Shown: positions 7,477 through 48,129, numbered from the stretch's first letter. The stretch is 64,000 nucleotides of DNA from Candidatus Omnitrophota bacterium (GCA_050250375.1 JBFWOS010000001.1:407090-471089), one strand, 5' to 3'. The notes: a model not told the origin generated them from the sequence alone. Numbers and translations are program-made.

Positions 7477-7509
7477 CAGCCTGATTTGATAGAATTAATG
7501 AGACAAAAG

Positions 7510-7788: not shown

Positions 7789-7797
7789 ATCATTTCC

Positions 7798-8166: not shown

Positions 8167-8281
8167 CTTCTTCCTTTGCTCAAATTCATTAACATTTTAT
8201 ACAAATCTTCAGGAACAAACCAGAGAAAAAAAACATTGCTTTCGCTTTTTCCTCAATTAGAATATCTTAAAGGAGAAAAAT

Positions 8282-8638
8282 ATGGTTTTTAAAGATTTCG
8301 TCCAAAAACTAAAATATCTTGATCACCTGGCAGCCCGCTGGCTGTTAAGACACTTTTATTTCACATTTTTCCAACTGGTTCTTCTTGTCATTTTCGTTTT
8401 CTGGTTCAAGAACCTCTTGAATGTTATTGATATCAATCTGCGACAGACGGATAAAACGTTCGTCGAGGCCATTTTAACCACCCAGAACGTAAATTCAACG
8501 ATTATTGTTGTTCTTCTGTTATTAAATTCTTTCTGGATGTTATATATATTGAATGCGATGCAACGATATGCAAATCTCCTCAAAGACATCAGTTACAACA
8601 TTAACCGCCTGAGAAATACACAAAAAAAGCCGCACTAA
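8282..8638 (+). CDS. Hypothetical membrane protein
   Basis: Strong RBS (AAAGGAGAAAAATATG) and two hydrophobic segments. It is convergent with ftsA and overlaps its stop. Confidence 0.5.
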   Translation: MVFKDFVQKLKYLDHLAARWLLRHFYFTFFQLVLLVIFVFWFKNLLNVIDINLRQTDKTFVEAILTTQNVNSTIIVVLLLLNSFWMLYILNAMQRYANLLKDISYNINRLRNTQKKPH

Positions 8639-9873
8639 AAATACTCGGTATATAATTCTTTGACCTTGGTAATCATTCTCTGACCTAAATTAATCTGACC
8701 TTTTCTATAATTATCATTTTCCTTTGAATCTTCAAAGCCTTTCTGGGCTAAACTAATCGCGGTTGAGAATAACGCCGAATTCGAGACATTTCTTTGGTTG
8801 ATATTATTTATTTGCGCCAGGGTCACCGCCAATTTGGTCTTTTCTTCAATCTTTTCAATCAGCCCTGTAAGTAACGCCCCTCCTCCGATCATTTTTACGC
8901 CCGCATATAAATCTTCATAAAACTCCGATCTCAATATGGACTGATAAATTTCTTCAACAAAATTATCAACCTGATTCAGAATTGCATTGTATATTTGGAT
9001 TCGTTTGATCGGCGTATATGCGCTTTCCCGTTTAACCAGTATTTCTTCATCCTCTTGAATTTGAGAAATAATCGCTGTCGCGTAGGACTTCTTGATTTCT
9101 TCCGCCAATTCAAACGATAAACTCAATGCCCGCGCTATCTCCTGCGTAAAATCATTCCCTCCCATTTCTAAGGTCTCAATATATTTAAGACGGCCTTCAT
9201 GGAACACAAGGACACTGGTGGTGTTGGCTCCCACATCAATCAAAACACATCCTTTATTGCGATGGTCATCCGTCAGTACAATCTCTGACGAGACATATGA
9301 TCCGAAGAAAAGATTCTTGACATCATACCCCGCGTGGTTAACCGACTTAAAAATATTCTTTACCCTGTCTACATTCGAAACAATAATCAAAGATTGGACC
9401 GCTAATTTTCGTCCGTAAAGACCCAGCGGATTTGTTGCGGAATTAACGTCATCGACTTGATAAATCTGGGGCATTTCATGCAAAACTTCATCCTCCATTT
9501 TTACCCCTAACAACCTGGCTTGCTTGTTCAACTTGCGTACATCTGTAGCCGCGATGACTTTATTGCCCCGATCCACCAGAGGAATAGCCGTAGACGTTTT
9601 GCGCACATCAATAAAACTGCCGTCTAACCCTATTTGAATTTCCTTCGTCCGTACTCCTGTCTTTTCTGCGAGTTCATTCAAGACGTGGTTGATACAATCG
9701 GCAAATTCGTTTAGGTCGCTGACAGATGAATCCTTAAAACCATAAATCGGGTGTTCAAACGCACCAAGAATTTCCGGTTTGGAATCTTTGATCTGGATCA
9801 AGCTGACTTTCAGCTTTTGGGACCCGATATCGAGTCCGCAGAATACTTTGTCTTTCATTACACGATTTAACAT
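8635..9873 (-). CDS. ftsA: Cell division protein FtsA
   Basis: Actin-like ATPase motifs (GLDIGSQKLKV…, …DVGANTTSV…, …GGGALL). It is the terminal gene of the dcw cluster. Confidence 0.9.
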   Translation of the reverse strand: MLNRVMKDKVFCGLDIGSQKLKVSLIQIKDSKPEILGAFEHPIYGFKDSSVSDLNEFADCINHVLNELAEKTGVRTKEIQIGLDGSFIDVRKTSTAIPLVDRGNKVIAATDVRKLNKQARLLGVKMEDEVLHEMPQIYQVDDVNSATNPLGLYGRKLAVQSLIIVSNVDRVKNIFKSVNHAGYDVKNLFFGSYVSSEIVLTDDHRNKGCVLIDVGANTTSVLVFHEGRLKYIETLEMGGNDFTQEIARALSLSFELAEEIKKSYATAIISQIQEDEEILVKRESAYTPIKRIQIYNAILNQVDNFVEEIYQSILRSEFYEDLYAGVKMIGGGALLTGLIEKIEEKTKLAVTLAQINNINQRNVSNSALFSTAISLAQKGFEDSKENDNYRKGQINLGQRMITKVKELYTEYF

Positions 9874-10637
9874 TATTTTTTCCCGATAATAGGTTCTTTA
9901 AACCTCAAATCAATATAATTGACTTCCTTTAAATTAAGGTTTCCCTGGGTTAGAACAATCCCAAGAACTTTGATTTTATAATTTATCCTTTGGTCATCAA
10001 TAATGGCTTTAATATCTCTGTCCAAATGAAGAAGAATTCTGGACAGCTGGTCAACATCCATATTCATTATTTTGTATGACGAAAGCGTAGTGTTCTCATT
10101 AAAAGATTTTATAATTTTTAACCCGGCCATAATCTCAACATTATTAACTTTCCCACCGGGGTTAATCGAATCAATCTTTATTTTAGGCCCGCCGATCGAA
10201 GGCAGCTCATTATCTTTGTTTTCAGACTCCGATAAAATGACACCTTCATCATCCAGCACTAAATATTTATTATTGTGTTCGAATTGTGCCAACCGTTTGC
10301 GTTTTTTAGCCAACAGATGAATCTGATTAGGAAATTTTTTCTCAACCCTCAATTCGGAAATCTGCGGATATTTCATTAAAAGGCCTTGTTCGACATCTTG
10401 TAAATCTATCTGGAAAATATTCTTCCCCTGGAGCCGAACCAAATCCCGTCGTTGAATAAACTGAAGAGTCGGGTCTATTACAATTGTCTGTACAGAAAAT
10501 CTCTCTGATTCATTAAAATAACTTGCGGTCCGGTCAAACAAAAACAAACATGCGGCCAGGGCGGCAATAATAATGACAACTATGACAGAGGACTTAATTA
10601 TCCACGATGGAAAAATTTTCTTTTTTCGTTTTGGCAT
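9873..10637 (-). CDS. ftsQ: Cell division protein FtsQ (POTRA)
   Basis: N-terminal TM helix followed by POTRA/FtsQ-like domains. It lies between ddl and ftsA. Confidence 0.75.
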   Translation of the reverse strand: MPKRKKKIFPSWIIKSSVIVVIIIAALAACLFLFDRTASYFNESERFSVQTIVIDPTLQFIQRRDLVRLQGKNIFQIDLQDVEQGLLMKYPQISELRVEKKFPNQIHLLAKKRKRLAQFEHNNKYLVLDDEGVILSESENKDNELPSIGGPKIKIDSINPGGKVNNVEIMAGLKIIKSFNENTTLSSYKIMNMDVDQLSRILLHLDRDIKAIIDDQRINYKIKVLGIVLTQGNLNLKEVNYIDLRFKEPIIGKK

Positions 10638-11571
10638 AAGCTAATTCCGTTAGGATGATGCATAATTGATCAAAATTTATTCCGGCGCATAAAGCCGCCT
10701 TCGGCAGCAAGCTCGTTTGGGTAAACCCCGGTATTGTGTTAATTTCCAAAACATACGGCCTAAAATTGTTATCCAATATAAAGTCGATGCGTGATAGATC
10801 CCTGCATCCGGCAAGCATATGGACTTTTAGGGCGGTTTCCTGCATTAGATGTTTTAATTCAACCGGCAATTCCGCCGGAACATTATACCTCGTCTGACCA
10901 CTCTCATATTTCGCAGAAAAATCAAAGAACCCGCCTTCCGTCAAGATCTCCACAACATCCAAGGGCTTGTCATCAAGAATTCCGACTGTTAATTCACGAC
11001 CTTCAATAAATTCCTCCACCAAAATTTCTCTACCAAAAGACTTGGCGTATTCTATGGCTTTAAGTAATGCGTCGGCGCTTTTGACCACATTAACTCCAAT
11101 ACTCGACCCCTCACAAGAAGGCTTAACGACCAAAGGAAACGTATTCAGCGTTTCGCTAACTTTTAGCAGATTGATTTCCTCGTCCTGAAAAAAAACTACC
11201 GATCCGGGCACAGTGATCCTGTTGTCTCTAAGCATTTTTTGAGTGGAAACCTTATTAAACGCCAATCGGCTAGATTTTGAGTCTGAACCGGTATAGGGAA
11301 TCTTGATTTCCTCACAAATGGACTGGATCTGACCATCTTCCCCAATTTTTCCATGCAAGGCAATGAAAACCAGATTAATTTCTTTTTCAAGCAGCAAATT
11401 CTTGATTTTCGTAGAATCATCATCCCGGATATCCAGGGCCAAAACATCTAATCCCTGGGAACTCAACGAATCATGCACCGCTTTTCCTGACTTAAGAGAA
11501 ATCTCCCTCTCCGTCGAACACCCCCCCATCACAACCCCGATTCTGCCAAATTTTTTGATTCGTTTAATCAT
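10594..11571 (-). CDS. ddl: D-alanine--D-alanine ligase
   Basis: ATP-grasp Ddl signature (…VVMGGCSTEREISLKSG…, …LHGKIGEDGQIQ…, …EINTIPGFT…). Confidence 0.9.
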   Translation of the reverse strand: MIKRIKKFGRIGVVMGGCSTEREISLKSGKAVHDSLSSQGLDVLALDIRDDDSTKIKNLLLEKEINLVFIALHGKIGEDGQIQSICEEIKIPYTGSDSKSSRLAFNKVSTQKMLRDNRITVPGSVVFFQDEEINLLKVSETLNTFPLVVKPSCEGSSIGVNVVKSADALLKAIEYAKSFGREILVEEFIEGRELTVGILDDKPLDVVEILTEGGFFDFSAKYESGQTRYNVPAELPVELKHLMQETALKVHMLAGCRDLSRIDFILDNNFRPYVLEINTIPGFTQTSLLPKAALCAGINFDQLCIILTELAYAKTKKENFSIVDN

Positions 11572-12955
11572 GGACTCTTTGAAGAACGTTCATATTTTTA
11601 TTTTGGAGTTTCTTGACCAGGTCATAACCAATCTGGTTTACATCTCCCGCCCCCAACGTAATCACAAGATCCTCCGGTTGTATAATCTTTAATAGGTGAC
11701 CGAGTATCTTTTCTTTTTTAATATAAAGGACTGTTTTGTCACATATCTTTTTAATTTCCTGGACGAATTTACTGCTATTAACACCTTCAATCGGGGATTC
11801 GCTCGCCTCATAAACATCCGTGACAATGAGGTAATCAATGCCTTTCAAACTATCCATAAACTCCCGCCAGAGCCCCTTAAATCGAGTATACCGGTGAGGT
11901 TGAAAAACCGCAATCACACGGCCGGTCGACAACTCACTGGCCGTTTGCAATGTCGCCGAAATTTCCGTAGGATGATGGGCATAATCGTCAATGACATATC
12001 CGCCGTCAAATTCCCCTAGGGTTTGAAACCGCCTCTGGACACCATTAAAGAGCCCTAAACTCTCAACAACAGCTCCAAAGTCAATGCACAATTCTTCACC
12101 TAGACTAATACAGGCCAAGGCATTGGCAATATTATGCCTGCCGGGAATATTTAACGTGACCGTGCCCTTTAAAACACCATTAATAACGCAATCAAAAGTC
12201 GACCTAAAACCATCCATGCGTATGTTGGTCGCAAATACCTGATCATCGGAAGAAAAACCATATGTCTTATATTTTCTAGAACTCTGTCGGATTAAGTCAC
12301 ATAGTCGTTTATCATCACCATACGCGAGAATAATTCCATCAGGAGTTGTCTTTTCAAAAAACTTTTGATAAGTATCCGCAATATTCTTCCAATTTTGATA
12401 ATAATCAAGATGCTCAAGATCCATGTTTGTAATAATAGAGTACTGTGGTGAGAAATAAAGAAATGAGCCGTCACTTTCATCAACTTCAGAAACAAAATAC
12501 TTTCCTAGTCCTAAAGTTGCGCTTGAACTCTTTCCGTTGACGATACCCCCTATGGCGGATGTTGGATTAAGCCCTGCATGGTTCAGCATCTGCCCGATCA
12601 TCGAAGTGGTTGTTGTTTTCCCGTGCGCTCCGGCAACGGTAATCCCGACATGTTCACGCATTAATTGCGCCAGAACCTGAGCTCTCTGAAGAACAGGGGT
12701 CCCCCGGCGATGAGCGGCTGTCAATTCACAGTTTGATTCTTTAATGGCTGAAGAATAAACAACGACATCCGCATCCGCGATATTCTCTGAATTGTGTCCG
12801 ATAGTGACGGCGGCACCCTTCTTCAACAGATGATGAACCATTGAATTTTCTTTCACATCCGAACCGCTAACCTTATGCCCCTTGTCTAATAACAACGAGG
12901 CAATCGTTCCCATCCCGATACCGCCTATTCCGATTAAATGATAATGTTTATTCAT
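11564..12955 (-). CDS. murC: UDP-N-acetylmuramate--L-alanine ligase
   Basis: HLIGIGGIGMG…GAHGKTTTTSM Mur ligase motifs and dcw context. Confidence 0.9.
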   Translation of the reverse strand: MNKHYHLIGIGGIGMGTIASLLLDKGHKVSGSDVKENSMVHHLLKKGAAVTIGHNSENIADADVVVYSSAIKESNCELTAAHRRGTPVLQRAQVLAQLMREHVGITVAGAHGKTTTTSMIGQMLNHAGLNPTSAIGGIVNGKSSSATLGLGKYFVSEVDESDGSFLYFSPQYSIITNMDLEHLDYYQNWKNIADTYQKFFEKTTPDGIILAYGDDKRLCDLIRQSSRKYKTYGFSSDDQVFATNIRMDGFRSTFDCVINGVLKGTVTLNIPGRHNIANALACISLGEELCIDFGAVVESLGLFNGVQRRFQTLGEFDGGYVIDDYAHHPTEISATLQTASELSTGRVIAVFQPHRYTRFKGLWREFMDSLKGIDYLIVTDVYEASESPIEGVNSSKFVQEIKKICDKTVLYIKKEKILGHLLKIIQPEDLVITLGAGDVNQIGYDLVKKLQNKNMNVLQRVHD

Positions 12956-13733
12956 TGTTTAAGTATCTCTCCCATGAATCATTTAACTTGTTAATATCCT
13001 TAAATCTGACATAGACCGAATCCAACGCCCAATTAAACGGCGAACCTTCCTTTAATTTCCGGCAAAAACGGACAAATTTGGCCTTTCCGTGCTCATCAAT
13101 AAGATATTTGACCACACTCGCTGATTCCGCATAAAACAAACTTATAACCGCCTCATCCGTCACAGGTGTAAGGCCTATCATTGTCAACTCGTCCAGCGGC
13201 ATAAACCGGCCGTTATGCATAGCCTGGCGGACAACATCATGTGAACCAAAACGCTTGGCCCGTTCCGCATACATCGCCACTCCTTCCTCAAACCATAACG
13301 GAATATTTGTTTTATAGCCAACGAAATCTCTAAAAACAATATGCCCCAGTTCGTGGGGAAGGGTTGAATCAAAAAAACCATGGGCCGTCGGGAACGTTCT
13401 GATCTTTTTCTGAGTCGGGGACGCTGATCCATGGGACCAACCGGCCTGTTTACCTGCATATACATAATCCTCCGAACTGTCATAAATATAAATCTTAACC
13501 CTGTTCTCATAAGACCAATTTTGAGTCCGGCCGAACCCGAGATTTTTGCTGATGTTATTATAATAAGTTTCCGTGGCTTCCTCAACGGCATCAACAAAAT
13601 CTTTGGGGGCATTATTATAATAGACAACCACATGTTTCCCGCGCAATTCTTTCCATTCGGCCGCATACGAGTATGACCCCCATAATATGAACAAACCAAG
13701 GGTCAAAACAATAAATCTGGGATTTAATTTCAT
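12948..13733 (-). CDS. Secreted HExxH zinc metallopeptidase-like protein (peptidase MA-type), inserted in the dcw cluster
   Basis: Signal peptide (LFILWGSYSYA-AEW). HELGH at about aa 128, with a downstream EEG (EEGVAMYAE) as a candidate third ligand. It overlaps both murG and murC. Confidence 0.6.
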   Translation of the reverse strand: MKLNPRFIVLTLGLFILWGSYSYAAEWKELRGKHVVVYYNNAPKDFVDAVEEATETYYNNISKNLGFGRTQNWSYENRVKIYIYDSSEDYVYAGKQAGWSHGSASPTQKKIRTFPTAHGFFDSTLPHELGHIVFRDFVGYKTNIPLWFEEGVAMYAERAKRFGSHDVVRQAMHNGRFMPLDELTMIGLTPVTDEAVISLFYAESASVVKYLIDEHGKAKFVRFCRKLKEGSPFNWALDSVYVRFKDINKLNDSWERYLNNE

Positions 13734-14803
13734 ACCGCGCTTGCTATCTCCCCGGCTAAAGATTTTGCCGCCCCGTTAATATTTAATTCTGCTATTAAGC
13801 GATCAAACAAAACCTCCGCAGGCGGGTGTTCCAGCAGATAAGATATGTCCTCCATCAGTCTGGTTGGGGTTAAATCGGCATCTTGAACAATCCTGGCTGT
13901 ATTCGATTCTACCAATACATCCGCATTTTCTTTTTGATGTCCCTGCGCGTATGGGTACGGCACCAGTATGGCCGGTTTTTTAAACCAAGTTAATTCTCCG
14001 ATCGTGGAAGCCCCCGAACGGGATATGACAACATCCGCCAATTGGTATAATTTTTCCATAGGTTCAAAAAATTCAAATAATACATGCGGTAGATTTAGAC
14101 CGTCGTACATATCCTTTACTTCTTCTAATTTTCCTTTACCGCTGATATGCATCACTTGTATTTTAAACCTACCCTGCAGATGTCTTAAAAATTCACAGAA
14201 AATTTGATTGATTCTCTGGCTCCCCTGACTTCCTCCAAACACCAGGATAATTTTGTCTGTTTTATTGAAACCAAATTCTGCAAGAGACTGCAAACGGTCG
14301 AAACGCTTTGACGAACGTGATATCGGACATCCCGTATGAACCAGCCGCTTACTTGTTAAATATTTCTTTGTATGTTTAAAACTAACCGCTACTTTCTTAA
14401 CAAAAAAACTTAAGAGTTTATTGGCTCTTCCTGGAACGACATTTTGCTCATGAATAATCGATGGAATTCCTAAAACCACGGCTGCACTGACAACAGGAAA
14501 AGCTCCATACCCTCCAAATCCTGCGACGACCTGCGGATTGATCTTTCTTAATTCCGTAATTGCCTGTATTGAAACTAGAAAAAGTTTAACAGCCGATTTA
14601 AAATCTGCCCAGCGGCTTTTCCCTTGAAGCCCTGTTGCCCGCAACTCGACCAAAGAAAAACCTTCACTAGTGATCCGGGTCTTGCCGGCACCCATGGCTC
14701 CTAAAAACACAACCTCATGACCATCCGTCCTTAAGCATTTAGCGGCTTCAATCGCAGGAAATAAATGCCCCGCTGAACCTCCCGTTGCCAATACGATTTT
14801 CAT
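13730..14803 (-). CDS. murG: UDP-GlcNAc:undecaprenyl-PP-MurNAc-pentapeptide GlcNAc transferase
   Basis: MKIVLATGGSAGHLFPAIE…GGSQGS MurG signature. Confidence 0.9.
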   Translation of the reverse strand: MKIVLATGGSAGHLFPAIEAAKCLRTDGHEVVFLGAMGAGKTRITSEGFSLVELRATGLQGKSRWADFKSAVKLFLVSIQAITELRKINPQVVAGFGGYGAFPVVSAAVVLGIPSIIHEQNVVPGRANKLLSFFVKKVAVSFKHTKKYLTSKRLVHTGCPISRSSKRFDRLQSLAEFGFNKTDKIILVFGGSQGSQRINQIFCEFLRHLQGRFKIQVMHISGKGKLEEVKDMYDGLNLPHVLFEFFEPMEKLYQLADVVISRSGASTIGELTWFKKPAILVPYPYAQGHQKENADVLVESNTARIVQDADLTPTRLMEDISYLLEHPPAEVLFDRLIAELNINGAAKSLAGEIASAV

Positions 14804-15897
14804 AGATCTTCAATACGTGATATATTCAACAACAGCCCGACAGCCACCATATTAAAAATCAAAGCAGACCCCCCGTAACTGATAAACGGCAACGGGAGTC
14901 CCTTTGTAGGAAACACCCCGATACTCACGCCGATATTGACTACCGCCTGAAGGCCAATGAGACAAACTAAACCTAAAGCCAAATAATACCCGAAAGGATT
15001 TTGGGTTCGTTTGGTGATCCGCGCACCTTGCCAAATAAAAACCGCAAATAACAAAACCGTAAAAACGGTTCCGATTAACCCCAATTCTTCCCCAATAATT
15101 GACAAGATAAAATCCGTATGGGCCGCCGGCAAATAAAACAACTTTTGCATACTTTTCCCGAGTCCGACGCCGAATATGCCGCCTGATCCCAGTGCAATCT
15201 GAGATTGGGAAAGCTGAAACCCTACACCCTGACTATCCTGCCAGGGGTCAAGAAACGCTACAATTCTGCGCATTCGATACGGTTCGCTGACAACCAGATA
15301 AACCAAAGCCGGTAAAGCCGCCAGCGCTAAGCCGGTTAAATATATTATTTTTGTCCCGGCAACGAATAACATAATGAAGATAATTGAAGCAATCAGGACT
15401 GAACTCCCTAAATCAGGCTGTTTAACAATAAGTAAACAGACACTCCCCATTATAATCAATAACGGCAGAAATCCCTCTACAAAATTGGTTATTTTTAACT
15501 GTTTCCTGGAAAGGAAATCAGCCGCATAGACCATAATCGCAATCTTGGTAAACTCTGAAGGTTGAAAACTGACCGGGCCAAGTTTAAACCAGCGCCTTGC
15601 TCCATAACTCGTTGACCCGATTCCAGGGATCAATACAATGACCAAAAGTATAAAGGCCGCTAACATTAAAAATTTGGAATATTTTTGCAGCAATCGGTAA
15701 TCAATAGCCATGGACATAAACATGACCAGACTGCCCAAAACCAGAAAAATTAAATGGCGCTTAAGGAAATACGTTCGATCTCCCAAGTTTTCTGCGGCAT
15801 AAACACCGCTGGATGAATAAATCATGATAATACCCAAACAGATCAGAACCGTTACAACAGCCGTAATCGATATTCGTAAATTTCGCATATTCTCCAA
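14800..15897 (-). CDS. ftsW: SEDS-family peptidoglycan glycosyltransferase FtsW
   Basis: 10-TM SEDS protein located between murD and murG. Confidence 0.85.
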   Translation of the reverse strand: MENMRNLRISITAVVTVLICLGIIMIYSSSGVYAAENLGDRTYFLKRHLIFLVLGSLVMFMSMAIDYRLLQKYSKFLMLAAFILLVIVLIPGIGSTSYGARRWFKLGPVSFQPSEFTKIAIMVYAADFLSRKQLKITNFVEGFLPLLIIMGSVCLLIVKQPDLGSSVLIASIIFIMLFVAGTKIIYLTGLALAALPALVYLVVSEPYRMRRIVAFLDPWQDSQGVGFQLSQSQIALGSGGIFGVGLGKSMQKLFYLPAAHTDFILSIIGEELGLIGTVFTVLLFAVFIWQGARITKRTQNPFGYYLALGLVCLIGLQAVVNIGVSIGVFPTKGLPLPFISYGGSALIFNMVAVGLLLNISRIEDL

Positions 15898-15909
15898 AAT
15901 TTAATAAAA

Positions 15910-17205: not shown

Positions 17206-17206
17206 T

Positions 17207-18295: not shown

Positions 18296-18298
18296 ATT

Positions 18299-19663
18299 TT
18301 AGGAGGTGTGAATTTTTTTTAAGAAATCGACCGTCAATTCCATGTTCATTGATCTTGAACCTTTGACAAGAATTGTATCACCCGGACGGCAGAATTGTTT
18401 TAATTTTTTATGTAATTCATTTCTGGTGTCAAAGTGAAACGCGGGTACGATTTTTGTTAAGTTCTGAAATGTCCGTACAGTTATTTTTGATTCCTGGCCT
18501 AAAGTCAGCAACAAATCAATGTCCGCCTTGAATATTTCTTCGGCCATTTTCTGATGCAGAACTTTGGACGATGCCCCCAGCTCCCGCATATCACCGCTCA
18601 CAACAATCTTTTTGCCTTTGACGTTTAAATTCCTGATAACGTCCAACGCGCTTTTAAAGGACAACGGATTAGAATTATAGGTATCATTGTAAATCCTGAT
18701 CTTCCCATACTTTTTTAATTCCCCTCGGTTCGGATCAGGCCTAAATTTAGAAATTTGAGCCTGAACATCTTCCTTCTTAACTCCAAAACATTCCGCACAT
18801 GAAATTGCCGCCAGCGCATTATAGATGTGATGCCGGCCCGGATTCGCCAAAGCATATTTTTTCTTGTTGACCTTAAAACGGACCCTGTTGTCTTGGTCCA
18901 TAATAATTGACTCGGCCTGATAGGCTGATTGAGTATTGATTGAAAACGCTAGTTTCCGAAACGGCAACCCTAAACTTTTGATTCTCCGCAAATAGTCATC
19001 ATCTCCGTTATATAGGATAACTCCCCCTTTTTTTAGACCTTTGGCGAGATTAACCTTTTCTTTGAAAACTCCGGCCTTATTCTTCAACCCTTCAAGATGT
19101 GACTCCCCGATATTCGTAAAGACCGCGAAGTCAGGTTCGGTAATTTCGGTCAGCCATGCGATATCCCCTTTTTGATTTGTCCCTAATTCCAAAACCGCAA
19201 TGGAATGGGATTTCTTCAATTTTAATAATGTCAGAGGAACGCCAATCCAATTGTTTTCTGAACGTTCATTCTTCAACACCTTAAACTTGGAACCCAAAAC
19301 GCTTGAAACCAAATTCTTCGTTGTTGTTTTCCCGGCACTGCCTGTGATCGCAACGACAGGGATGTCAAACTGAGAACGGTAAAAGTGAGCTATTTGCCCG
19401 AGGGCCTTAACTGTATCCTTTACACGAATTACACTAATTCCTTTGAGTTTCATTTTCTTAGAAACAAGAACGGCAACAGCACCCTGTTGGATGGCCTTCC
19501 TGACGAATGTGTGTCCATCATGATTGATCCCTTTGATGGCGACGTATAACGCCCCCTGCCCCAGCGCACGGGTATTGATAGAAACCGATTTCAAACTTAC
19601 AGCCGGATCACCGTTTTCCAGTCGGCCATTCGTTGCCTGAATAATTTGTTCTACAGTTAACAT
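18299..19663 (-). CDS. murF: UDP-MurNAc-tripeptide--D-Ala-D-Ala ligase
   Basis: ITGSAGKTTTK Mur ligase signature and dcw order. Confidence 0.9.
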   Translation of the reverse strand: MLTVEQIIQATNGRLENGDPAVSLKSVSINTRALGQGALYVAIKGINHDGHTFVRKAIQQGAVAVLVSKKMKLKGISVIRVKDTVKALGQIAHFYRSQFDIPVVAITGSAGKTTTKNLVSSVLGSKFKVLKNERSENNWIGVPLTLLKLKKSHSIAVLELGTNQKGDIAWLTEITEPDFAVFTNIGESHLEGLKNKAGVFKEKVNLAKGLKKGGVILYNGDDDYLRRIKSLGLPFRKLAFSINTQSAYQAESIIMDQDNRVRFKVNKKKYALANPGRHHIYNALAAISCAECFGVKKEDVQAQISKFRPDPNRGELKKYGKIRIYNDTYNSNPLSFKSALDVIRNLNVKGKKIVVSGDMRELGASSKVLHQKMAEEIFKADIDLLLTLGQESKITVRTFQNLTKIVPAFHFDTRNELHKKLKQFCRPGDTILVKGSRSMNMELTVDFLKKIHTS

Positions 19664-21114
19664 CGCAAATATTGCCTTACAACAGTTCTTTCATCAAATT
19701 TAATGGTACGGTCCTTAAATATCTGATAATCTTCATGGCCTTTACCCGCAATCAGCACAACATCCCCTTCATCCGCAATATTTAACGCCTTAATAATGGC
19801 TTGTTCACGATCAACCTCCACAATATAGTTTTCACCTTCCATGCCTTTGATAATTTCGTCAATAATTGCTTTCGGTTCTTCATTCCTGGGGTTATCGCTG
19901 GTCACCACACAATAATCCGCGAGTCGGCTGGCAACAAGCCCCATGGCCGGGCGTTTTGTTCTGTCGCGGTTGCCTCCGCATCCGAATACCAATATAATTC
20001 TTCCCTTGGTTACAGACTTTAACGTGGTCAATACGTTTTCTAAAGCGTCTTGGGTATGCGCATAATCAATGAGGATCGAATAGCCTTGCTGGCAGTCAAT
20101 TCGTTCAAGCCTGCCGGGGACATATTTGAGACTCTCCACTCCCCGCCGTATATTCTCCAGGCTTATTCCTTCTTTTAAACTGACCGCCGCCGCTGCAAGG
20201 ATATTGTATATGTTATACTGCCCCAGCAGACTGGTCCGGATAACAACATCTCCCTGCGAAGTTACGAGTTTAAATTGCGTCTGTTCTATTTCGAGTTTAA
20301 TTTCGCGGGCCATTACATCTGCATTATGACGAATTCCATAAGTCACCCGGGTGCCTGCGGATTGTGAAACTAACTTTTGTCCGAATTCGTCATCAATATT
20401 AATAACAGAACATCCTTCAGGACTAACCATTTTAAACAGTTTGGCTTTGGCATTAAAATATTCCTGTCTTGTTTTGTGATAATCCAAATGATCACTGGTC
20501 AGATTGGTAAAGACCGCTGCTTTGAAATGAATCAAATCAACCCTGTTTTGATCTAACGCGTGCGAAGAGACTTCCATAACGCAATACTCAACACCGTCGC
20601 TAACTAAACCATATAATAACTTCTGATTTTCGAGAAATCCCGGCGTAGTGTTTACGGAAGGTAACATTCTCTCACCGACCCTATAATTCACCGTGCCGAT
20701 AACGCCGCAAGTCTTGTCATCCCCATGCAAAATTGATTCAATCAAATAAGTAATGGTCGTCTTTCCGTTTGTTCCCGTTATTCCGATCACCTTTATTTTC
20801 TCCGAAGGCTGTTGGTAAAACCGTTTTGTAATCAATTTTAAAAATGTGACGGGGTCATCCGTCTGCAGAAAACAAACGCCGGGATATCCTTCTTCAGGAA
20901 AAGGCTTGTCAGCCACAACGACAACGGCACCCTTGGTGATTGCATCATGGATGTATTCATAACCATCAAAACTGCTTCCCTTTAATGCAACAAACAAACT
21001 ATCCTTTTCAACAGATCTTGAATCACAACTTAAGGATTTGATAGGACGATTCCAAGATTTCAGATCTATTTTGCCGTCATAAATATCTGCAAGCAATTCT
21101 TCTAAGGTCATCAT
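19657..21114 (-). CDS. murE: UDP-MurNAc-L-Ala-D-Glu--2,6-diaminopimelate ligase
   Basis: GITGTNGKTTITY…DNPR motifs and dcw order. Confidence 0.9.
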   Translation of the reverse strand: MMTLEELLADIYDGKIDLKSWNRPIKSLSCDSRSVEKDSLFVALKGSSFDGYEYIHDAITKGAVVVVADKPFPEEGYPGVCFLQTDDPVTFLKLITKRFYQQPSEKIKVIGITGTNGKTTITYLIESILHGDDKTCGVIGTVNYRVGERMLPSVNTTPGFLENQKLLYGLVSDGVEYCVMEVSSHALDQNRVDLIHFKAAVFTNLTSDHLDYHKTRQEYFNAKAKLFKMVSPEGCSVINIDDEFGQKLVSQSAGTRVTYGIRHNADVMAREIKLEIEQTQFKLVTSQGDVVIRTSLLGQYNIYNILAAAAVSLKEGISLENIRRGVESLKYVPGRLERIDCQQGYSILIDYAHTQDALENVLTTLKSVTKGRIILVFGCGGNRDRTKRPAMGLVASRLADYCVVTSDNPRNEEPKAIIDEIIKGMEGENYIVEVDREQAIIKALNIADEGDVVLIAGKGHEDYQIFKDRTIKFDERTVVRQYLRC

Positions 21115-22808
21115 AAATTGTTTGGTTTTGATAGTTCTGCTGTTTGTAAATATTTTAATGCGTTCTCCAGGACTTCTTTGGCGACCGGCGCTGCGACGGT
21201 CCCACCGAAATAACTGGGATGTGGTTCATCAACAATAACTACACAGGCGAGCTGAGGATCATCAGCCGGAGCAAATGCAAAAAATGAAGCGACAAATTTA
21301 CTATGCGAATATAACCCATCCACGACTTTTTGTGACGTCCCTGTTTTTCCAGCAACCCGCATTCCGTCAATTTTTGCTTTTTTTGCCGTTCCATTTTCGG
21401 TGACACCAACCAGAATGTCGCGAACCCGGCGGGCCGTATGTTCACTTATGACCCTGTCGATGATCTCAGGCTGCACCGCTTTGATAATTTGATTCTGCTT
21501 ATCTTTGATATATTTTAGGATGTGCGGCCGCATATAATAACCATCATTCGCGATCACCGAAATAGCCCCTATGAGCTGAAGCGGTGTCACCGTAACTTCA
21601 TGGCCAATCGGTATCGCGCCAATTGTTGTTTTAGACCACTCAGAAGGTTTTTTCAGCCAGCCGTCCACTTCGCCTTTCAACTCAATATTGGTCAACAGTC
21701 CAAACCTAAACCGCCGCGCATAATTATAAATCACATCCGGCCCCATTTTCTGAGCTATTTTTGTAACGCCGATATTGCTTGAAACTTCAAAGACCTGTTG
21801 AAACGTAAGCTTGCCATGCGGACGATGATCATGCAGGGTATGGTTGGCCACGCGGTATTCTCCATTTTCACAAAATATTTCGTCTGATTCAACAAAATAG
21901 TCTTCTTCTAAAGCCGCGGCGGCTGCAACAATTTTAAAAACAGAACCGGGTTCCAAAACAAAGCTAACCGCCCGATTAGTACGATTTTCTACATCGCTTT
22001 GGCCTACCAGTTCAAGATTATAGGTCGGCCTGTTCGCGAGGGCTAAAATCTCCCCTGTTTTGGGATTAGAAACAATGATTGTTGCTGACTTAGCGTTGTG
22101 TTGAACAAAGGCTTTTTCAAGGGCCCTCTCTGCGATATACTGAATGGTTTCATCAATTGTCAGCACAACATCCAATCCATCTTGCGGCGATATAAAACTC
22201 TTCTCCAACAAGAGTTCCCGTTGCTTCGCATCTCTGATAAACAACGCCTTACCTGATTTACCTTTGAGAAACCGATCAAAAACTAACTCCACACCTTCTA
22301 ACCCTCTATTGTCTATATCAGCAAAGCCAATGACATGCGCCGCCAATTCACCATTGGGGTAATACCGCTTGCTCTCATCGATAAAAGATAAACCCCTGAT
22401 CCGATATGACTTAATAACATTTGCCAATTCCAAGGGTAATTTTCGTTTAAGCCAGACAAAATATTTTTTTCTATTAAGCCTACTTTCGATAAGCGATTTA
22501 TCAATCCCCAATAAATAGGGTAAGACCTCCAAAGCCTTTTTTTTGTCGTCTTCAGACATCTCATTTGGATTCGCGTATAAAGAATGAACCGAAACATTTA
22601 AGGCTAATGGCCTAGAATTTCTGTCAAAGATAGTCCCTCTGACGGGCTCAAGTTCAATTAATTGATTGTGCTGTTTATTAGCTAAATTGGCTAAATGGTC
22701 GGCTTTAAAAACTTGGATAAGAACTAAATTTACAATAAAAATACAAAGACAAGTTATTAGAAATAAAATGACCAAGCTGAATCTGAGTTCATGTTTTCTG
22801 TTTTGCAC
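21111..22808 (-). CDS. ftsI: Class B penicillin-binding protein (peptidoglycan transpeptidase) FtsI
   Basis: SVFK (SxxK), SSN and KTGT motifs. There is an N-terminal TM helix. Confidence 0.85.
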   Translation of the reverse strand: MQNRKHELRFSLVILFLITCLCIFIVNLVLIQVFKADHLANLANKQHNQLIELEPVRGTIFDRNSRPLALNVSVHSLYANPNEMSEDDKKKALEVLPYLLGIDKSLIESRLNRKKYFVWLKRKLPLELANVIKSYRIRGLSFIDESKRYYPNGELAAHVIGFADIDNRGLEGVELVFDRFLKGKSGKALFIRDAKQRELLLEKSFISPQDGLDVVLTIDETIQYIAERALEKAFVQHNAKSATIIVSNPKTGEILALANRPTYNLELVGQSDVENRTNRAVSFVLEPGSVFKIVAAAAALEEDYFVESDEIFCENGEYRVANHTLHDHRPHGKLTFQQVFEVSSNIGVTKIAQKMGPDVIYNYARRFRFGLLTNIELKGEVDGWLKKPSEWSKTTIGAIPIGHEVTVTPLQLIGAISVIANDGYYMRPHILKYIKDKQNQIIKAVQPEIIDRVISEHTARRVRDILVGVTENGTAKKAKIDGMRVAGKTGTSQKVVDGLYSHSKFVASFFAFAPADDPQLACVVIVDEPHPSYFGGTVAAPVAKEVLENALKYLQTAELSKPNNL

Positions 22809-22839
22809 TGCTGATACATTACCATTTTATTAGGCTGGA

Positions 22840-23223
22840 TTATTCCTTGATTCTTGCTTCAGCGCGCGACGCAAAGGATATAATACTTGTTAAAGGATTC
22901 GCATTGGCTGAAGACAACTGGGTGCTGTTAACATCCTGTTCATCCACCAACTTCTGGGTCGAAGAAATGTGGATGATGTTGTTCGGATTAACAAACTGCA
23001 TCCCGGACTTATCACCCAACATCTCAAATCCCAGATTATTGGCCGATTTTATTCTCAAAATTGCGTATGTTAAATTCTGGTTTTGTTGATTTAATTGATA
23101 AATCATTTTTTCCTTATCTTTACCCAAATAGGCCAAATCAAAAATCTGCATTTGCATATGGATATACGTTAAAGATAAAAGGGTTATTACTCCCATTGTT
23201 TTAATAAAAGTAAATAATTTCAT
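22840..23223 (-). CDS. ftsL: FtsL-like division protein (small bitopic coiled-coil)
   Basis: 127 aa with an N-terminal TM helix and a coiled coil. It lies between rsmH and ftsI. Confidence 0.55.
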   Translation of the reverse strand: MKLFTFIKTMGVITLLSLTYIHMQMQIFDLAYLGKDKEKMIYQLNQQNQNLTYAILRIKSANNLGFEMLGDKSGMQFVNPNNIIHISSTQKLVDEQDVNSTQLSSANANPLTSIISFASRAEARIKE

Positions 23224-24161
23224 CCATTCCTCTCTATGATTCGAAATCTTGCACTGCGGGATCTTGGGTTTATCGATATTTCTTTTTCTGAAGGTCTTAA
23301 CGGTTTCTTAACCAAACAGCGCACTAAATTTGCCTTGGCAAACATTTTAAATTTGTTTTTAACAATCCGATCTTCCAATGAATGAAAGGATATTATCCCT
23401 AATCGCCCTTGAGGCTTTAAAAGTGAAATGCATTTATCAATCGCTATTTCAAGGGTTTCCAGCTCACGGTTCACCGCAATCCTAAAGGCCTGAAATGTCC
23501 GGGTAGCCGGATGGATGCGTTGGGGTTTTCCCTTCATGGGTATAGCTTTTTGAACAATTCTGGATAAATCGTCTGTAAATTCTATCGGATGCTTTGAGCG
23601 TTCAGACACGATCAAACGAGCAATTCGATTTGACCATCTCTCCTCTCCAAAATCCTTGAGAATGATAGCAATCTCCTTTTCTGATAATGAATTGACCAGA
23701 TCATAAGCCGAAATCGGCGCATTCTGATCCATCCTCATATCCAATGGACCGGCTTGTCTAAGACTAAAACCCCTTTCAGGATTATCAAGCTGGTAACTAG
23801 AGATCCCTAAATCGAGAAATATGCCATCGACCTTGTGTATATTCAAATCGTTAAGAACATCATCAATAAAACGAAAATCTTTATGAACAAAATGACACTG
23901 GTGTAAATGCGCCCCCAAAGAAATAGTGGCTTTCTTCAATGATTCTTCATCCCTATCCAACCCAATTAACAAGCCTTTGGAACCAATCCGTTGTAAAAAT
24001 CTTAACGCATGCCCCCCCATACCTAAGGTGCCATCGACGAATACCTCATTCGATTTCGGATCCATAAAATCCAGCACTTCATCAGGCATAACCGGAAGAT
24101 GGTCATGCGGGCTTTGGTCAAAAATGTTCTGAGTTTCGGTCATCATTAACGATTTGATCAT
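23220..24161 (-). CDS. rsmH: 16S rRNA (cytosine1402-N4)-methyltransferase RsmH/MraW
   Basis: VDGTLGMGGH…DLGISSYQLD…SFHSLEDRIVK signature. Confidence 0.9.
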   Translation of the reverse strand: MIKSLMMTETQNIFDQSPHDHLPVMPDEVLDFMDPKSNEVFVDGTLGMGGHALRFLQRIGSKGLLIGLDRDEESLKKATISLGAHLHQCHFVHKDFRFIDDVLNDLNIHKVDGIFLDLGISSYQLDNPERGFSLRQAGPLDMRMDQNAPISAYDLVNSLSEKEIAIILKDFGEERWSNRIARLIVSERSKHPIEFTDDLSRIVQKAIPMKGKPQRIHPATRTFQAFRIAVNRELETLEIAIDKCISLLKPQGRLGIISFHSLEDRIVKNKFKMFAKANLVRCLVKKPLRPSEKEISINPRSRSARFRIIERNG

Positions 24162-24178
24162 TTAGATCCCACTCCCCT

Positions 24179-24442
24179 TTACGCTGAAAAACAGGGAACT
24201 TTTTGCTCATGGACTGCTCGACTAAAACGATCCATTACAAGTTGGTATTGCGGTTTATCCTTCAATTCATCCCACGTGTCTTTTGATCCGTTGCGTATGT
24301 AAATTCGATCCCGCTGCCTAAAAACTAGAAAAAGTCTTGTTCGACCCGTAGCCGTCTCCACCGTGGAACAAAAAATGCAGTCACAATTTGGTAAATCAAT
24401 GAGATGCTGAAATACAATACTTGCTGCGTCAAATTGCTCCAT
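24179..24442 (-). CDS. Small Cys-containing hypothetical protein inserted between mraZ and rsmH
   Basis: 87-aa ORF that fills the only sizeable gap in the operon. A G-rich SD (AGGGGGG) lies 4 nt upstream of the ATG. It contains CDCIFC. Confidence 0.4.
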   Translation of the reverse strand: MEQFDAASIVFQHLIDLPNCDCIFCSTVETATGRTRLFLVFRQRDRIYIRNGSKDTWDELKDKPQYQLVMDRFSRAVHEQKVPCFSA

Positions 24443-24487
24443 TGTACCCCCCTAATTTTGATGGTGAATACAAACTTGTGGTCTAGG

Positions 24488-24925
24488 CTAAATATCCAAC
24501 AAGTTTTCAGAAATCTCTTCAAACGTACCGCTGGAACCTGAATAGTATGTTTCCCAGCTTTTTTTGTCCCAAATTTCAATACGGTTGGAAACCCCAATCA
24601 AAATGGTTTCACGCTTAATAACGGCATAATCTTTAAGATAATTCGGTATGATAAACCGCCCTTGTTTATCGGGAGTGACATCAATAGCCCCCGCAAAAAA
24701 CATCCGGTTAAAACTCCGCGTTTCTTTTCGAGTAAACGGCATATTCTTGAATTTTTGTTCTTGTGCCCGCCATTCGTCTTCAGCAAACATAAATATGCAT
24801 TTATCAAGCCCGCGTGTAAGGAAAAACCGTTCTATTGAATACTCCTTGCAGGTTTCTCGGAACTTCGCCGGCAGTATCAACCTTCCCTTACGATCTAAAT
24901 TATGTAGAAATTCACCATAGAACAT
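24488..24925 (-). CDS. mraZ: Transcriptional regulator MraZ
   Basis: MFYGEFLHNLDRKGRLILPAKFR…DKQGRFIIP duplicated MraZ repeats. Confidence 0.9.
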   Translation of the reverse strand: MFYGEFLHNLDRKGRLILPAKFRETCKEYSIERFFLTRGLDKCIFMFAEDEWRAQEQKFKNMPFTRKETRSFNRMFFAGAIDVTPDKQGRFIIPNYLKDYAVIKRETILIGVSNRIEIWDKKSWETYYSGSSGTFEEISENLLDI

Positions 24926-24940
24926 GTTTCAACCTATTAT

Positions 24941-25003
24941 CCACATCACTCCACTTTCCTCCACTATGTTGAACATTTTAACTACACAAATGGGCCATGT
25001 CAA
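24941..25003 (-). promoter_or_regulatory. Pmra-like promoter (TTGACA-17-TAAAAT) followed by three GTGG direct repeats at 10-bp spacing (MraZ-box-like operator)
   Basis: Minus strand reads TTGACATGGCCCATTTGTGTAGTTAAAAT. Then AGTGGAG / AAAGTGGAG / TGATGTGGAT follow, with CCAC at + 24941, 24951 and 24961. Confidence 0.45.
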
Positions 25004-25182
25004 TCGAAAAATACCACATTTTTAACGTAAACCAATAAAATACAATAATTTGTACTCAAAACAAGCTTGCATACAATATTTAGTTGTTTTTTTGACTAAA
25101 TTACACGCTGTAAAGCTTGGCTTGTAACGAAATAGTTAAACTTTCATCTTTTTGATTAATCTAACGCAGGTTAACAATAGGA

Positions 25183-43482: not shown

Positions 43483-43485
43483 AGC

Positions 43486-44871: not shown

Positions 44872-44876
44872 CTCGA

Positions 44877-45752: not shown

Positions 45753-45785
45753 TGAATAGGAGAATGATAGATCTTTGTTAATTGA

Positions 45786-47962: not shown

Positions 47963-48129
47963 GCCAATGGAGCGCCCCAATGAAACCTGGCCACCATTTT
48001 GCATCAGAAAAGTTAATTTCTTTACAAAATCTTGTTAACATAAATAATAGTGTTATAAAATTACCTTACAAATAATATCCAAAACCCAATACAAAAATAT
48101 TAAACCATAAAGAAATCCGGGACATCGAT

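What the first reader, a model, noticed from the sequence alone, without database searches (positions are those of the whole stretch)
8635..25003. dcw cluster with atypical composition: no ftsZ after ftsA, no murB between murC and ddl, and a secreted HExxH peptidase between murG and murC
The gene order mraZ-rsmH-ftsL-ftsI-murE-murF-mraY-murD-ftsW-murG-X-murC-ddl-ftsQ-ftsA is canonical, with three exceptions.
- The cluster ends at ftsA. The next gene downstream is a convergent plus-strand ORF, and an unrelated response-regulator operon follows. There is no ftsZ within 8 kb.
- murB is absent from its usual murC–ddl slot.
- At 12948–13733, overlapping both neighbours so clearly co-transcribed, sits a signal-peptide-bearing HELGH metallopeptidase-like protein.

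A secreted protease co-expressed with the peptidoglycan precursor genes could be a cell-wall or divisome-associated hydrolase. ftsZ may lie elsewhere or be absent, as in some PVC-group bacteria.
Basis: partly seen in the sequence, partly recalled or inferred. Interest (0 to 1): 0.55.

Follow-up and report, generated by a model that had tools for sequence, protein, structure and literature searches.

The report
Omnitrophota division cluster with built-in peptidase
This is the cell-wall and division gene cluster of an uncultured Omnitrophota bacterium: across this group the cluster has no ftsZ in its usual place, and in most sampled lineages it carries an extra, strongly conserved exported zinc peptidase of unknown role.

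Summary
Window 8635-24925 (minus strand) encodes mraZ-rsmH-ftsL-ftsI-murE-murF-mraY-murD-ftsW-murG-X-murC-ddl-ftsQ-ftsA. There is no ftsZ or murB anywhere in the 64 kb.

The organism is a Candidatus Omnitrophota MAG (PVC superphylum), and the layout is a lineage trait, not a local accident:
- All 83 related loci have murG-X-murC.
- None of 58 loci with at least 1.5 kb after ftsA has ftsZ. The same queries find ftsZ in 33 control loci.
- murB stays in the cluster only in some sublineages.
- Published surveys found no FtsZ in most Omnitrophica genomes, although FtsA is kept.

X is a roughly 27 kDa protein with a signal peptide. It has a complete gluzincin catalytic set (H127-E128-x-x-H131, E150, Y201) and a predicted fold closest to M9 and M1 peptidases. 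It is as conserved as the Mur ligases.

Its wider family sits in type II secretion operons, between gspF and gspG. Peptidoglycan is the substrate common to both settings. I therefore infer a periplasmic peptidoglycan-remodelling peptidase, but this is not shown. Some ftsZ-less clusters lack X, so X is not simply a replacement for FtsZ.

I could not test whether ftsZ and murB are absent from the whole genome.

The parts
24975..25003 (-). Best sigma-70-like promoter match upstream of mraZ (TTGACA-17-TAAAAT)
   Evidence: 11 of 12 matches, the best site in 7400-25400. This is a consensus match only. The total number of such sites in the region is no higher than in shuffled sequence.
24488..24925 (-). 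mraZ
   Evidence: PF02381, E = 1.6e-37
23220..24161 (-). rsmH (mraW)
   Evidence: PF01795, E = 3e-104
22840..23223 (-). ftsL-like ORF, 127 aa, with one N-terminal TM helix
   Evidence: Assigned by position only. No Pfam or NCBIfam hit; sequence. Conserved in 48 related loci at a median of 39% identity.
21111..22808 (-). ftsI (class B PBP)
   Evidence: PBP_dimer plus Transpeptidase domains
19657..21114 (-). murE
   Evidence: three Mur ligase domains, plus position in the cluster
18299..19663 (-). murF
   Evidence: three Mur ligase domains, plus position in the cluster
17207..18295 (-). mraY
   Evidence: Glycos_transf_4 and MraY_sig1
15910..17205 (-). murD
   Evidence: MurD-like_N plus Mur ligase M and C domains
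14800..15897 (-). ftsW (SEDS family)
   Evidence: PF01098, E = 3e-114
13730..14803 (-). murG
   Evidence: Glyco_transf_28 N- and C-terminal domains
12948..13733 (-). X: 261-aa gluzincin peptidase with a signal peptide (clan MA, PF13485). HELGH is at nt 13355-13341, E150 at 13286-13284 and Y201 at 13133-13131.
   Evidence: AF2 model pLDDT 88. Foldseek top matches are M9 collagenase peptidase domains. The catalytic residues are 99-100% conserved across the family. X lies between murG and murC in 83 of 83 loci.
11564..12955 (-). murC
   Evidence: TIGR01082, 492.7 bits (cut-off 335)
10594..11571 (-). ddl
   Evidence: NF002378, 335.9 bits (cut-off 243)
9873..10637 (-). ftsQ
   Evidence: POTRA_1 plus FtsQ_DivIB_C
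8635..9873 (-). ftsA, last gene of the cluster. Its C-terminal motif ...KELYTEYF is conserved.
   Evidence: (TIGR01174, 221.6 bits against a cut-off of 175.85)
8282..8638 (+). Convergent 118-aa ORF with two TM helices, specific to Omnitrophota. It overlaps the end of ftsA by 4 nt and closes the cluster where ftsZ would normally lie.
   Evidence: present in 55 of 64 loci; 44 homologues; the named ones are all Omnitrophica, none has a Pfam domain; helical hairpin, pLDDT 72

Best explanation
The region is the division and cell wall (dcw) operon of a Candidatus Omnitrophota bacterium, in the form typical of a large part of that phylum.

Shown:
1. All lipid II and septal synthesis genes from mraZ to ftsA are present, tightly packed on one strand, and follow one strong promoter-like site.
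2. ftsZ is missing from its ancestral slot after ftsA in every Omnitrophota-type locus examined. Where the older arrangement survives, ftsA is followed directly by yggS-proC.
3. murB has left the cluster in the window's sublineage only.
4. A 261-aa gene, X, is inserted between murG and murC and overlaps both. It encodes a protein with a signal peptide and a complete gluzincin catalytic set (H127, E128, H131, E150, Y201). It is as conserved as the Mur ligases.
5. X belongs to a large family of proteins of about 260 aa. The other sampled clades of that family sit inside type II secretion operons, between gspF and gspG or next to the secretin.

Inferred:
- X is an active periplasmic zinc peptidase, made in step with MurG and MurC.
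- It cuts peptidoglycan stem peptides or cross-links locally, making room for new septal wall. Its paralogues would do the same for an envelope-spanning secretion machine.
- Division in these bacteria is probably organised without FtsZ, around membrane-bound FtsA and the FtsW-FtsI synthase.
For: Architecture and spread:
- Gene identities.
- Organism.
- 83 of 83 loci have murG-X-murC.
- 65 loci include ftsA, 58 of them with at least 1.5 kb downstream. None has an FtsZ-like ORF, even at phmmer E <= 10.
- The same queries detect ftsZ after ftsA in 33 unrelated dcw loci, so the search is sensitive.
- ftsA is followed by yggS-proC in L094, L097 and L102; in L085 only the yggS-like gene is visible before the locus ends.
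- Literature: Omnitrophica listed among FtsZ-less PVC phyla. FtsZ 'NA' in 4 of 5 genomes, with FtsA present in 3 of those 4 (PMC8178401). FtsZ not detected in 2 of 3 genomes (PMC5147048).

X as an enzyme:
- PF13485 above the gathering cut-off.
- AF2 pLDDT 88.
- Foldseek: M9 collagenase peptidase domains (TM 0.55-0.64), then M1 enzymes.
- H127, E128, H131, E150 and Y201 are 99-100% conserved among about 140 representatives at 50% identity.
- Median identity across loci is 51%, against MurC 52, MurD 53, Ddl 49.5, FtsA 43 and MurG 42.
- A hydrophobic N-terminus is present in nearly all 30 aligned homologues, and the mature protein starts at a conserved (E/D)W(K/Q)E motif.

Link to peptidoglycan:
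- Five of five sampled non-dcw relatives, from four different sequence clusters, lie in T2SS operons.
- Almost no positions are specific to the dcw clade, which argues for the same kind of substrate in both settings. Peptidoglycan is the obvious shared element.
- That envelope-spanning machines often have dedicated wall hydrolases is established knowledge (for example the lytic transglycosylases of type III and IV secretion systems and the T6SS endopeptidase TagX). I cite it from memory.
Against: - No known peptidoglycan peptidase belongs to this family. X has no recognisable wall-binding domain (LysM, SPOR, OmpA-like) and no match to M15, M23, M14, M74 or NlpC/P60 models.
- The structural neighbours, collagenases and aminopeptidases, act on proteins and peptides.
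- A T2SS setting could equally mean that the paralogues are secreted cargo or process secretion-system proteins.
- Clusters without X exist that also lack ftsZ: L099, L175, L101 and L102. X is therefore neither universal nor tied to the loss of ftsZ.
- Operon membership shows co-expression, not shared function.
- Whole-genome absence of ftsZ was not tested here. One recent paper groups Omnitrophota with phyla in which dcw genes are 'highly conserved' (PMC12283558).
Confidence: 0.4

Rival explanations
1. X is a periplasmic protease acting on protein substrates: maturation, turnover or quality control of bitopic or periplasmic parts of envelope machines. Candidates are FtsL, FtsQ and FtsI in the divisome, and pseudopilins, GspC-like proteins or the secretin in the T2SS. 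It would not act on peptidoglycan.
For: - The closest structures are protein and peptide hydrolases of families M9 and M1.
- Both genomic settings encode many single-pass membrane proteins with periplasmic domains.
- There is precedent, recalled from memory, for periplasmic proteases processing division proteins: E. coli Prc trims the C-terminus of FtsI.
Against: - The dcw and T2SS clades share nearly all conserved positions. That is unexpected if each recognised a different machine-specific protein.
- No partner-binding domain such as PDZ or TPR is present in a protein of only 261 aa.
Confidence: 0.25
2. X is an exported, possibly extracellular, protease used on the environment or on a host. 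Its paralogues are T2SS cargo encoded next to their secretion system, and the dcw copy sits in the operon only because that ensures steady expression.
For: - Signal peptide.
- T2SS-linked paralogues.
- E. coli encodes the T2SS-secreted metalloprotease SslE/YghJ next to its gsp genes (recalled from memory).
- Omnitrophota are proposed to be host-dependent or predatory (title of PMC10066038).
Against: - The position inside the secretion operon, between gspF and gspG, is fixed in four of the five T2SS-linked loci sampled; in the fifth (L084, a 1.7-kb contig) X lies next to the secretin. A fixed internal position is more typical of a machine component than of cargo.
- The position between murG and murC, often with overlapping codons, is invariant in 83 of 83 loci across proteins only 45-71% identical. 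Conservation equals that of essential enzymes. This is hard to explain as hitch-hiking.
Confidence: 0.12
3. There is nothing unusual about division. ftsZ and murB have simply moved elsewhere in this genome (an ordinary rearrangement), and FtsA works with FtsZ as usual.
For: - FtsA is a full-length equivalog with a conserved C-terminal membrane-targeting-like motif. In Planctomycetota and Chlamydiota FtsA was lost together with FtsZ, so keeping FtsA could imply keeping FtsZ.
- PMC12283558 describes dcw genes as highly conserved in Omnitrophota.
- 'Omnitrophica bacterium OLB16' has ftsA and ftsZ with adjacent accession numbers.
- For murB this reading is almost certainly right. The pathway needs MurB, other Omnitrophota carry it, and the same paper reports murB as conserved across PVC.
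Against: - Two independent surveys did not find FtsZ in most Omnitrophica genomes while finding FtsA.
- ftsZ is absent from the slot in every one of 58 or more loci here.
- I found no Omnitrophota FtsZ sequence that could serve as a query.
Confidence: 0.15
4. X is a catalytically dead scaffold (a pseudo-peptidase) that only binds a partner.
For: No activity data exist. Small exported proteins in division clusters are often structural.
Against: All five catalytic residues are 99-100% conserved over a family with 7024 members at E <= 0.001. That pattern is typical of active enzymes.
Confidence: 0.05

Closest known systems
Canonical bacterial dcw cluster (mraZ ... ftsA-ftsZ), as in E. coli and most phyla
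   Same: Same genes in the same order from mraZ to ftsA, on one strand, tightly packed, with a promoter-like site before mraZ.
   Different: - No ftsZ at the distal end.
- No murB between murC and ddl in this sublineage.
- An extra exported peptidase gene between murG and murC.
- A convergent lineage-specific 2-TM ORF closes the cluster.
FtsZ-less division in Chlamydiota and Planctomycetota (PVC superphylum)
   Same: - Same superphylum.
- ftsZ not detected, while peptidoglycan synthesis genes, FtsK and RodZ are present.
- The literature lists Omnitrophica among the FtsZ-less PVC phyla.
   Different: - Those phyla also lost FtsA and have fragmented dcw clusters.
- Here FtsA, FtsQ and an intact, compact cluster are kept.
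- Whole-genome absence of ftsZ was not verified here.
Clan MA(E) gluzincins: M9 collagenase peptidase domain and M1 aminopeptidases (LTA4H, ERAP1)
   Same: HExxH plus a downstream Glu ligand plus a conserved Tyr. Predicted fold matches with TM-score 0.5-0.64.
   Different: - Only 12-18% identity, and no sequence-level hit to any PDB chain.
- A single 261-aa domain without an activator, helper, PKD or CBD domain.
- No GxMEN exopeptidase motif. The edge strand reads W-S-H-G-x-A.
Dedicated wall hydrolases of envelope-spanning machines and 'space-maker' endopeptidases (for example MepS/MepM, T6SS TagX, secretion-system lytic transglycosylases)
   Same: The proposed logic is the same: a periplasmic hydrolase co-encoded with the machinery that must insert material into, or pass through, the wall. 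The family occurs both in dcw and in T2SS operons.
   Different: The fold and family are entirely different from any known peptidoglycan hydrolase. Activity on peptidoglycan is untested. The comparison rests on my own knowledge of those systems.
SslE/YghJ, a T2SS-linked secreted metalloprotease of E. coli
   Same: An HExxH zinc protease encoded with gsp genes.
   Different: SslE is a lipoprotein of about 1500 aa in family M98, encoded upstream of the operon, and is cargo. X-like proteins are about 260 aa and sit between gspF and gspG. This comparison is from memory and was not tested.

Membership tests
dcw cluster | Conserved gene content and order mraZ-rsmH-ftsL-ftsI-murE-murF-mraY-murD-ftsW-murG-murC-...-ftsQ-ftsA on one strand | tested here: met
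dcw cluster | ftsZ immediately after ftsA | tested here: not met
   Positive control.
dcw cluster | murB between murC and ddl (common but not universal) | tested here: not met
   Present in related loci L068, L073, L074, L085, L087 and L094.
Clan MA(E) gluzincin metallopeptidase | HExxH motif plus a Glu third zinc ligand about 18-25 residues downstream | tested here: met
   H127, E128, H131 and E150. E128 and E150 are 100% conserved; H127 and H131 are 99%.
Clan MA(E) gluzincin metallopeptidase | Thermolysin-like two-subdomain fold | tested here: met
   AF2 pLDDT 88. Foldseek probability 1.0 to M9 and M1 catalytic domains.
Clan MA(E) gluzincin metallopeptidase | Pfam clan member scoring above the gathering threshold | tested here: met
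   PF13485, 67.8 bits against 32.4
Clan MA(E) gluzincin metallopeptidase | Zinc-dependent peptide-bond hydrolysis | not testable with these tools
   Needs biochemistry
Peptidase family M9 (collagenase / flagellinolysin) | Sequence-level membership | tested here: not met
   Flagellinolysin model scores 26.8 bits against a cut-off of 205. A profile of X finds no PDB chain at E <= 10.
Peptidase family M1 (aminopeptidase N type) | GxMEN exopeptidase motif upstream of HExxH | tested here: not met
   The corresponding conserved strand is W99-S-H-G-x-A. PF01433 appears only as a faint precomputed hit in one paralogue.
Known peptidoglycan peptidases (M15, M23, M14, M74, NlpC/P60, amidases) | Match to any of these family models | tested here: not met
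   PF13485 is the only Pfam hit at E <= 0.01. The only NCBIfam hit is the weak flagellinolysin match.
FtsA | Actin-like fold with SHS2 insert, scoring above the equivalog cut-off | tested here: met
   TIGR01174, 221.6 bits against 175.85. PF14450 plus PF02491.
FtsA | C-terminal amphipathic membrane-targeting helix | tested here: inconclusive
   The conserved C-terminus ...(K/R)xKELYxEYF resembles E. coli ...LNSWLRKEF. Judged by eye only.
FtsZ-less PVC division (Chlamydiota / Planctomycetota type) | No ftsZ anywhere in the genome | not testable with these tools
   Only the 64-kb window and 20-kb loci could be read. The literature supports phylum-level absence.
FtsZ-less PVC division (Chlamydiota / Planctomycetota type) | FtsA also lost | tested here: not met
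   ftsA is present. Loss of FtsA in those phyla is stated in PMC12283558.
T2SS-associated X-like peptidases | Encoded between gspF and gspG or next to the secretin | tested here: not met
   The window's copy lies between murG and murC. No gsp genes were found among the window ORFs scanned. No second copy of X is in the window.

The most novel reading that the evidence does not exclude
Omnitrophota divide with a compact divisome that has FtsA but no FtsZ. A previously unrecognised class of peptidoglycan hydrolase, a minimal gluzincin of the PF13485 type, has been built into the lipid II operon. The same enzyme family serves as the wall-opening component of type II secretion systems in these and related bacteria. 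The conserved 2-TM ORF that occupies the place after ftsA would be a further lineage-specific division factor.
Probability: 0.2. Interest if true: 0.8.

Novelty: new variant of a known kind. Interest (0 to 1): 0.6.

Why it matters
- Omnitrophota would be the only phylum known so far, to my knowledge, that keeps FtsA, FtsQ and a full, compact dcw operon but has no FtsZ. That makes it a natural test case for what FtsA and the FtsW-FtsI synthase can do without the Z-ring, an open question for PVC cell biology.
- The papers I could read disagree on whether Omnitrophota have FtsZ. A clear genome-wide answer would be useful.
- X is as conserved as the Mur ligases and is fixed inside the operon in most lineages sampled. 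None of the papers I could search or read mentions it.
- If X acts on peptidoglycan, it defines a new hydrolase family. It would also explain a conserved unknown gene in many type II secretion operons.
- If X does not act on peptidoglycan, the finding reduces to a lineage-specific operon variant.

Tried and rejected
- **Whole-genome test for ftsZ.** Not possible. The tools return at most 10 kb either side of a chosen gene. Protein searches list only the 120 best hits, so an E. coli or B. subtilis FtsZ query would never reach Omnitrophota. No Omnitrophota FtsZ turned up in any of about 175 loci to serve as a query. I chose not to spend a database search on it.
- **murB elsewhere in the window's genome.**
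  - I searched with an in-cluster Omnitrophota MurB from L068.
  - The two contexts I looked up were both in-cluster.
  - The cluster-member lookup gave no locus tags.
It did serve as a positive control for FtsZ detection.
- **Sequence search of X against PDB chains.** No hit, even at E <= 10.
- **Literature.**
  - Nothing on PF13485 function.
  - Nothing on a metallopeptidase in dcw clusters.
  - Seymour 2023 and Williams 2021 do not discuss division or wall genes.
  - Megrian et al. 2022, on dcw cluster evolution, is not held. It may already describe this layout.
  - One paper search was wasted because I set min_terms too loosely.
- **'X compensates for the loss of FtsZ'.** Rejected as a simple rule. 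L099, L175, L101 and L102 lack both.
- **X as an M1-type aminopeptidase.** Rejected because there is no GxMEN motif.
- **X as a lipoprotein.** Rejected for the window's copy because it has no lipobox cysteine.
- **Rfam scan of the window.** No RNA family detected.
- **ORF118 structure.** Only a helical hairpin of moderate confidence, so I ran no fold search on it.

Full report
**1. The observation**

On the minus strand, 24925 down to 8635 encodes mraZ, rsmH, a 127-aa single-TM ORF in the ftsL position, ftsI, murE, murF, mraY, murD, ftsW, murG, X, murC, ddl, ftsQ and ftsA.

- Nearly all junctions overlap or are separated by 31 nt or less. The one exception is a 326-bp gap between mraZ and rsmH.
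- X (12948-13733) overlaps murG by 4 nt and murC by 8 nt.
- The best promoter-like site of the region lies just upstream of mraZ at 25003-24975. It is a consensus match only.
- After ftsA comes a convergent ORF (8282-8638), then a response-regulator gene.
- tblastn with E. coli FtsZ and MurB finds nothing in the 64 kb. Pfam scans of the window's larger ORFs show no tubulin-like or MurB-like protein.

**2. Whose genome this is**

X is 100% identical to a protein of a Candidatus Omnitrophota MAG, assembly GCA_050181705.1. All named homologues among the top 120 are Omnitrophota or Omnitrophica.

**3. The layout is a lineage trait**

A scan of one genome per GTDB species found relatives of X in 274 genomes. 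I annotated the best 80 loci plus three others with the window's own proteins.

- All 83 loci show murG-X-murC.
- 65 include ftsA, and 58 of those have at least 1.5 kb downstream. None has an FtsZ-like ORF, even at phmmer E <= 10.
- The same FtsZ queries found ftsZ right after ftsA in 33 dcw loci of other phyla fetched later. The method is therefore sensitive.
- murB lies between murC and ddl only in L068, L073 and L074 of this set. It does so also in more distant X-bearing clusters: L085, L087, L094, L096, L097 and L127.
- Loss of murB from the cluster is therefore a rearrangement within a sublineage. MurB is abundant in Omnitrophota generally.
- In L094, L097 and L102 ftsA is followed directly by yggS-proC; L085 shows a yggS-like gene right after ftsA before the locus ends. 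From my knowledge of other phyla, those genes often follow ftsZ. This looks like a clean loss of ftsZ from its slot.

**4. FtsZ in the literature**

- Pende et al. 2021 (PMC8178401) name Omnitrophica, with Planctomycetes and Chlamydiae, as phyla lacking FtsZ. Their table lists FtsZ as 'NA' in 4 of 5 Omnitrophica genomes, while FtsA is present in 3 of those 4. Only 'OLB16' has both.
- Rivas-Marín et al. 2016 found FtsZ only in OLB16 and left open whether incomplete data explained the rest.
- A 2025 paper groups Omnitrophota with phyla whose dcw genes are 'highly conserved'.

The absence of FtsZ is therefore already noted, only in passing, and not consistently. I could not test the whole genome.

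The window's FtsA passes the equivalog cut-off. It also carries a C-terminal ...KELYxEYF motif that is conserved across the FtsA sequences of 65 loci I sampled, and that resembles a membrane-targeting helix. RodZ and FtsK are also in the window.

**5. What X is**

- X is 261 aa. Its N-terminus has a Sec-type signal peptide and an A-x-A-like cleavage site, with no lipobox (judged by eye).
- PF13485 (Peptidase_MA_2) scores above its gathering threshold.
- The AF2 model is confident, with pLDDT 88. Its best structural matches are the peptidase domains of M9 collagenases, then M1 enzymes. Identity is only 12-18%, and there is no sequence-level PDB hit.
- A profile search of 1.84 billion representatives finds 7024 relatives, 224 of them at E <= 1e-30. 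The 150 best listed are mostly about 260 aa.
- Across about 140 representatives, H127, E128, H131, E150 and Y201 are 99-100% conserved. This is the full gluzincin catalytic set with M9/M1-like spacing. The GxMEN aminopeptidase motif is absent.
- Across the 83 loci, X is as conserved (median 51% identity) as MurC, MurD, MurE and Ddl. It is more conserved than MurG, FtsA and FtsQ.

**6. A clue from paralogues**

- Members of the clade containing X (39-44% identical) are again between murG and murC.
- Five of five sampled members of other clades lie in type II secretion operons. The order is gspE-gspF-[X-like]-gspG-pseudopilins-gspK-gspL/M, or the gene sits next to the secretin.
- One of these is from an Omnitrophica MAG. 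Another cluster includes a Lentisphaerales MAG.
- Almost no alignment positions distinguish the dcw clade from the rest.

**7. How it most likely works**

Shown: an exported clan MA peptidase with intact catalytic residues, fixed inside the lipid II operon, from a family otherwise fixed inside T2SS operons.

Inferred: both settings concern machines that must insert material into, or pass through, the wall. The two clades share their conserved surface. The simplest common substrate is therefore peptidoglycan. X would be a periplasmic stem-peptide or cross-link hydrolase, made in step with MurG and MurC, that opens the wall for septal synthesis. I give this about 0.4.

Rivals:
- A protease of machine proteins (0.25).
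- Secreted cargo (0.12).
- A dead scaffold (0.05).

Separately, I give ftsZ being merely relocated in this genome about 0.15.

**8. Limits**

- Clusters with ftsA but without both X and ftsZ exist. L099 and L175 have murG-murC-murB. L101 and L102 have a murC-murB fusion.
- The loss of ftsZ is therefore wider than the insertion of X, and X is not simply a stand-in for FtsZ.
- X resembles no known wall hydrolase family and has no wall-binding domain.

**9. Novelty**

The FtsZ-less, FtsA-positive state of Omnitrophota is already noted in the literature. I did not find the conserved peptidase inside the cluster, its T2SS-linked family, or the conserved closing 2-TM ORF described in any paper I could search. 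Megrian et al. 2022 could not be read.

I rate this a new variant of a known kind, with interest 0.6.

Noticed in passing
window 8282-8638 (+): A 118-aa ORF with two TM helices, convergent with ftsA and overlapping it by 4 nt. It is found only in Omnitrophota, has no Pfam family, and is present after ftsA in 55 of 64 loci. It has invariant polar residues within the helices (H24, Q31, N82, S83). The AF2 model is a helical hairpin (pLDDT 72). It occupies the place where ftsZ would be; its function is unknown.
   Followed up: partly
L084, L086, L089, L090, L091: Relatives of X (30-37% identical) are a conserved, undescribed gene of type II secretion operons, between gspF and gspG or next to the secretin. 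One is from an Omnitrophica MAG.
   Followed up: partly
L101 894-3203; L102 6579-8891: murC-murB fusion genes (769-770 aa), like the one reported for Verrucomicrobium spinosum. They lie in clusters that lack both X and ftsZ, with yggS-proC-ylmG following ftsA in L102 (contig of 391 kb, organism unknown).
   Followed up: no
L099 1946-4483; L175 4574-7029: Clusters whose MurB is 50-59% identical to Omnitrophota MurB have murG directly followed by murC (no X) and still no ftsZ after ftsA. X is therefore not universal in this group.
   Followed up: partly
window 56476-57546 (-) and 57455-59740 (-): RodZ (HTH_25 plus RodZ_C) and a full-length FtsK (4TM, alpha, motor and gamma domains) are adjacent, and their called ORFs overlap. 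Both proteins are implicated in FtsZ-independent division in Chlamydia.
   Followed up: no
window 24162-24487 (-); ORF 24179-24442: An unusually long 326-bp gap between mraZ and rsmH contains an 87-aa ORF with no family match. The related loci did not reach far enough to check whether it is conserved.
   Followed up: no
window 40418-50251 (+): A block of seven plus-strand ORFs (238-783 aa) has no significant Pfam or NCBIfam hit and lower GC (0.34-0.37, against about 0.40 elsewhere). It is interrupted by an FkbM-type methyltransferase gene on the other strand.
   Followed up: partly
window 8635-8700 (ftsA C-terminus) and 65 related loci: FtsA ends in a strongly conserved ...(K/R)xKELYxEYF motif across the phylum. 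That is tighter sequence conservation than I would expect for a generic amphipathic membrane anchor.
   Followed up: partly
L018, L019, L029, L030 and others (record titles): Many MAGs carrying the Omnitrophota-type cluster are labelled 'uncultured Planctomycetales', and one 'Lysobacterales', in their public records. This is probably mislabelled taxonomy or bin contamination.
   Followed up: no
window 7174-8166 (-): The response regulator, a 92-aa ORF, a CxxC zinc-ribbon protein (TIGR04104-like) and a class V aminotransferase follow the cluster in the same order in L001. The response regulator does so in 26 loci. This is a second conserved neighbourhood next to the dcw cluster.
   Followed up: no
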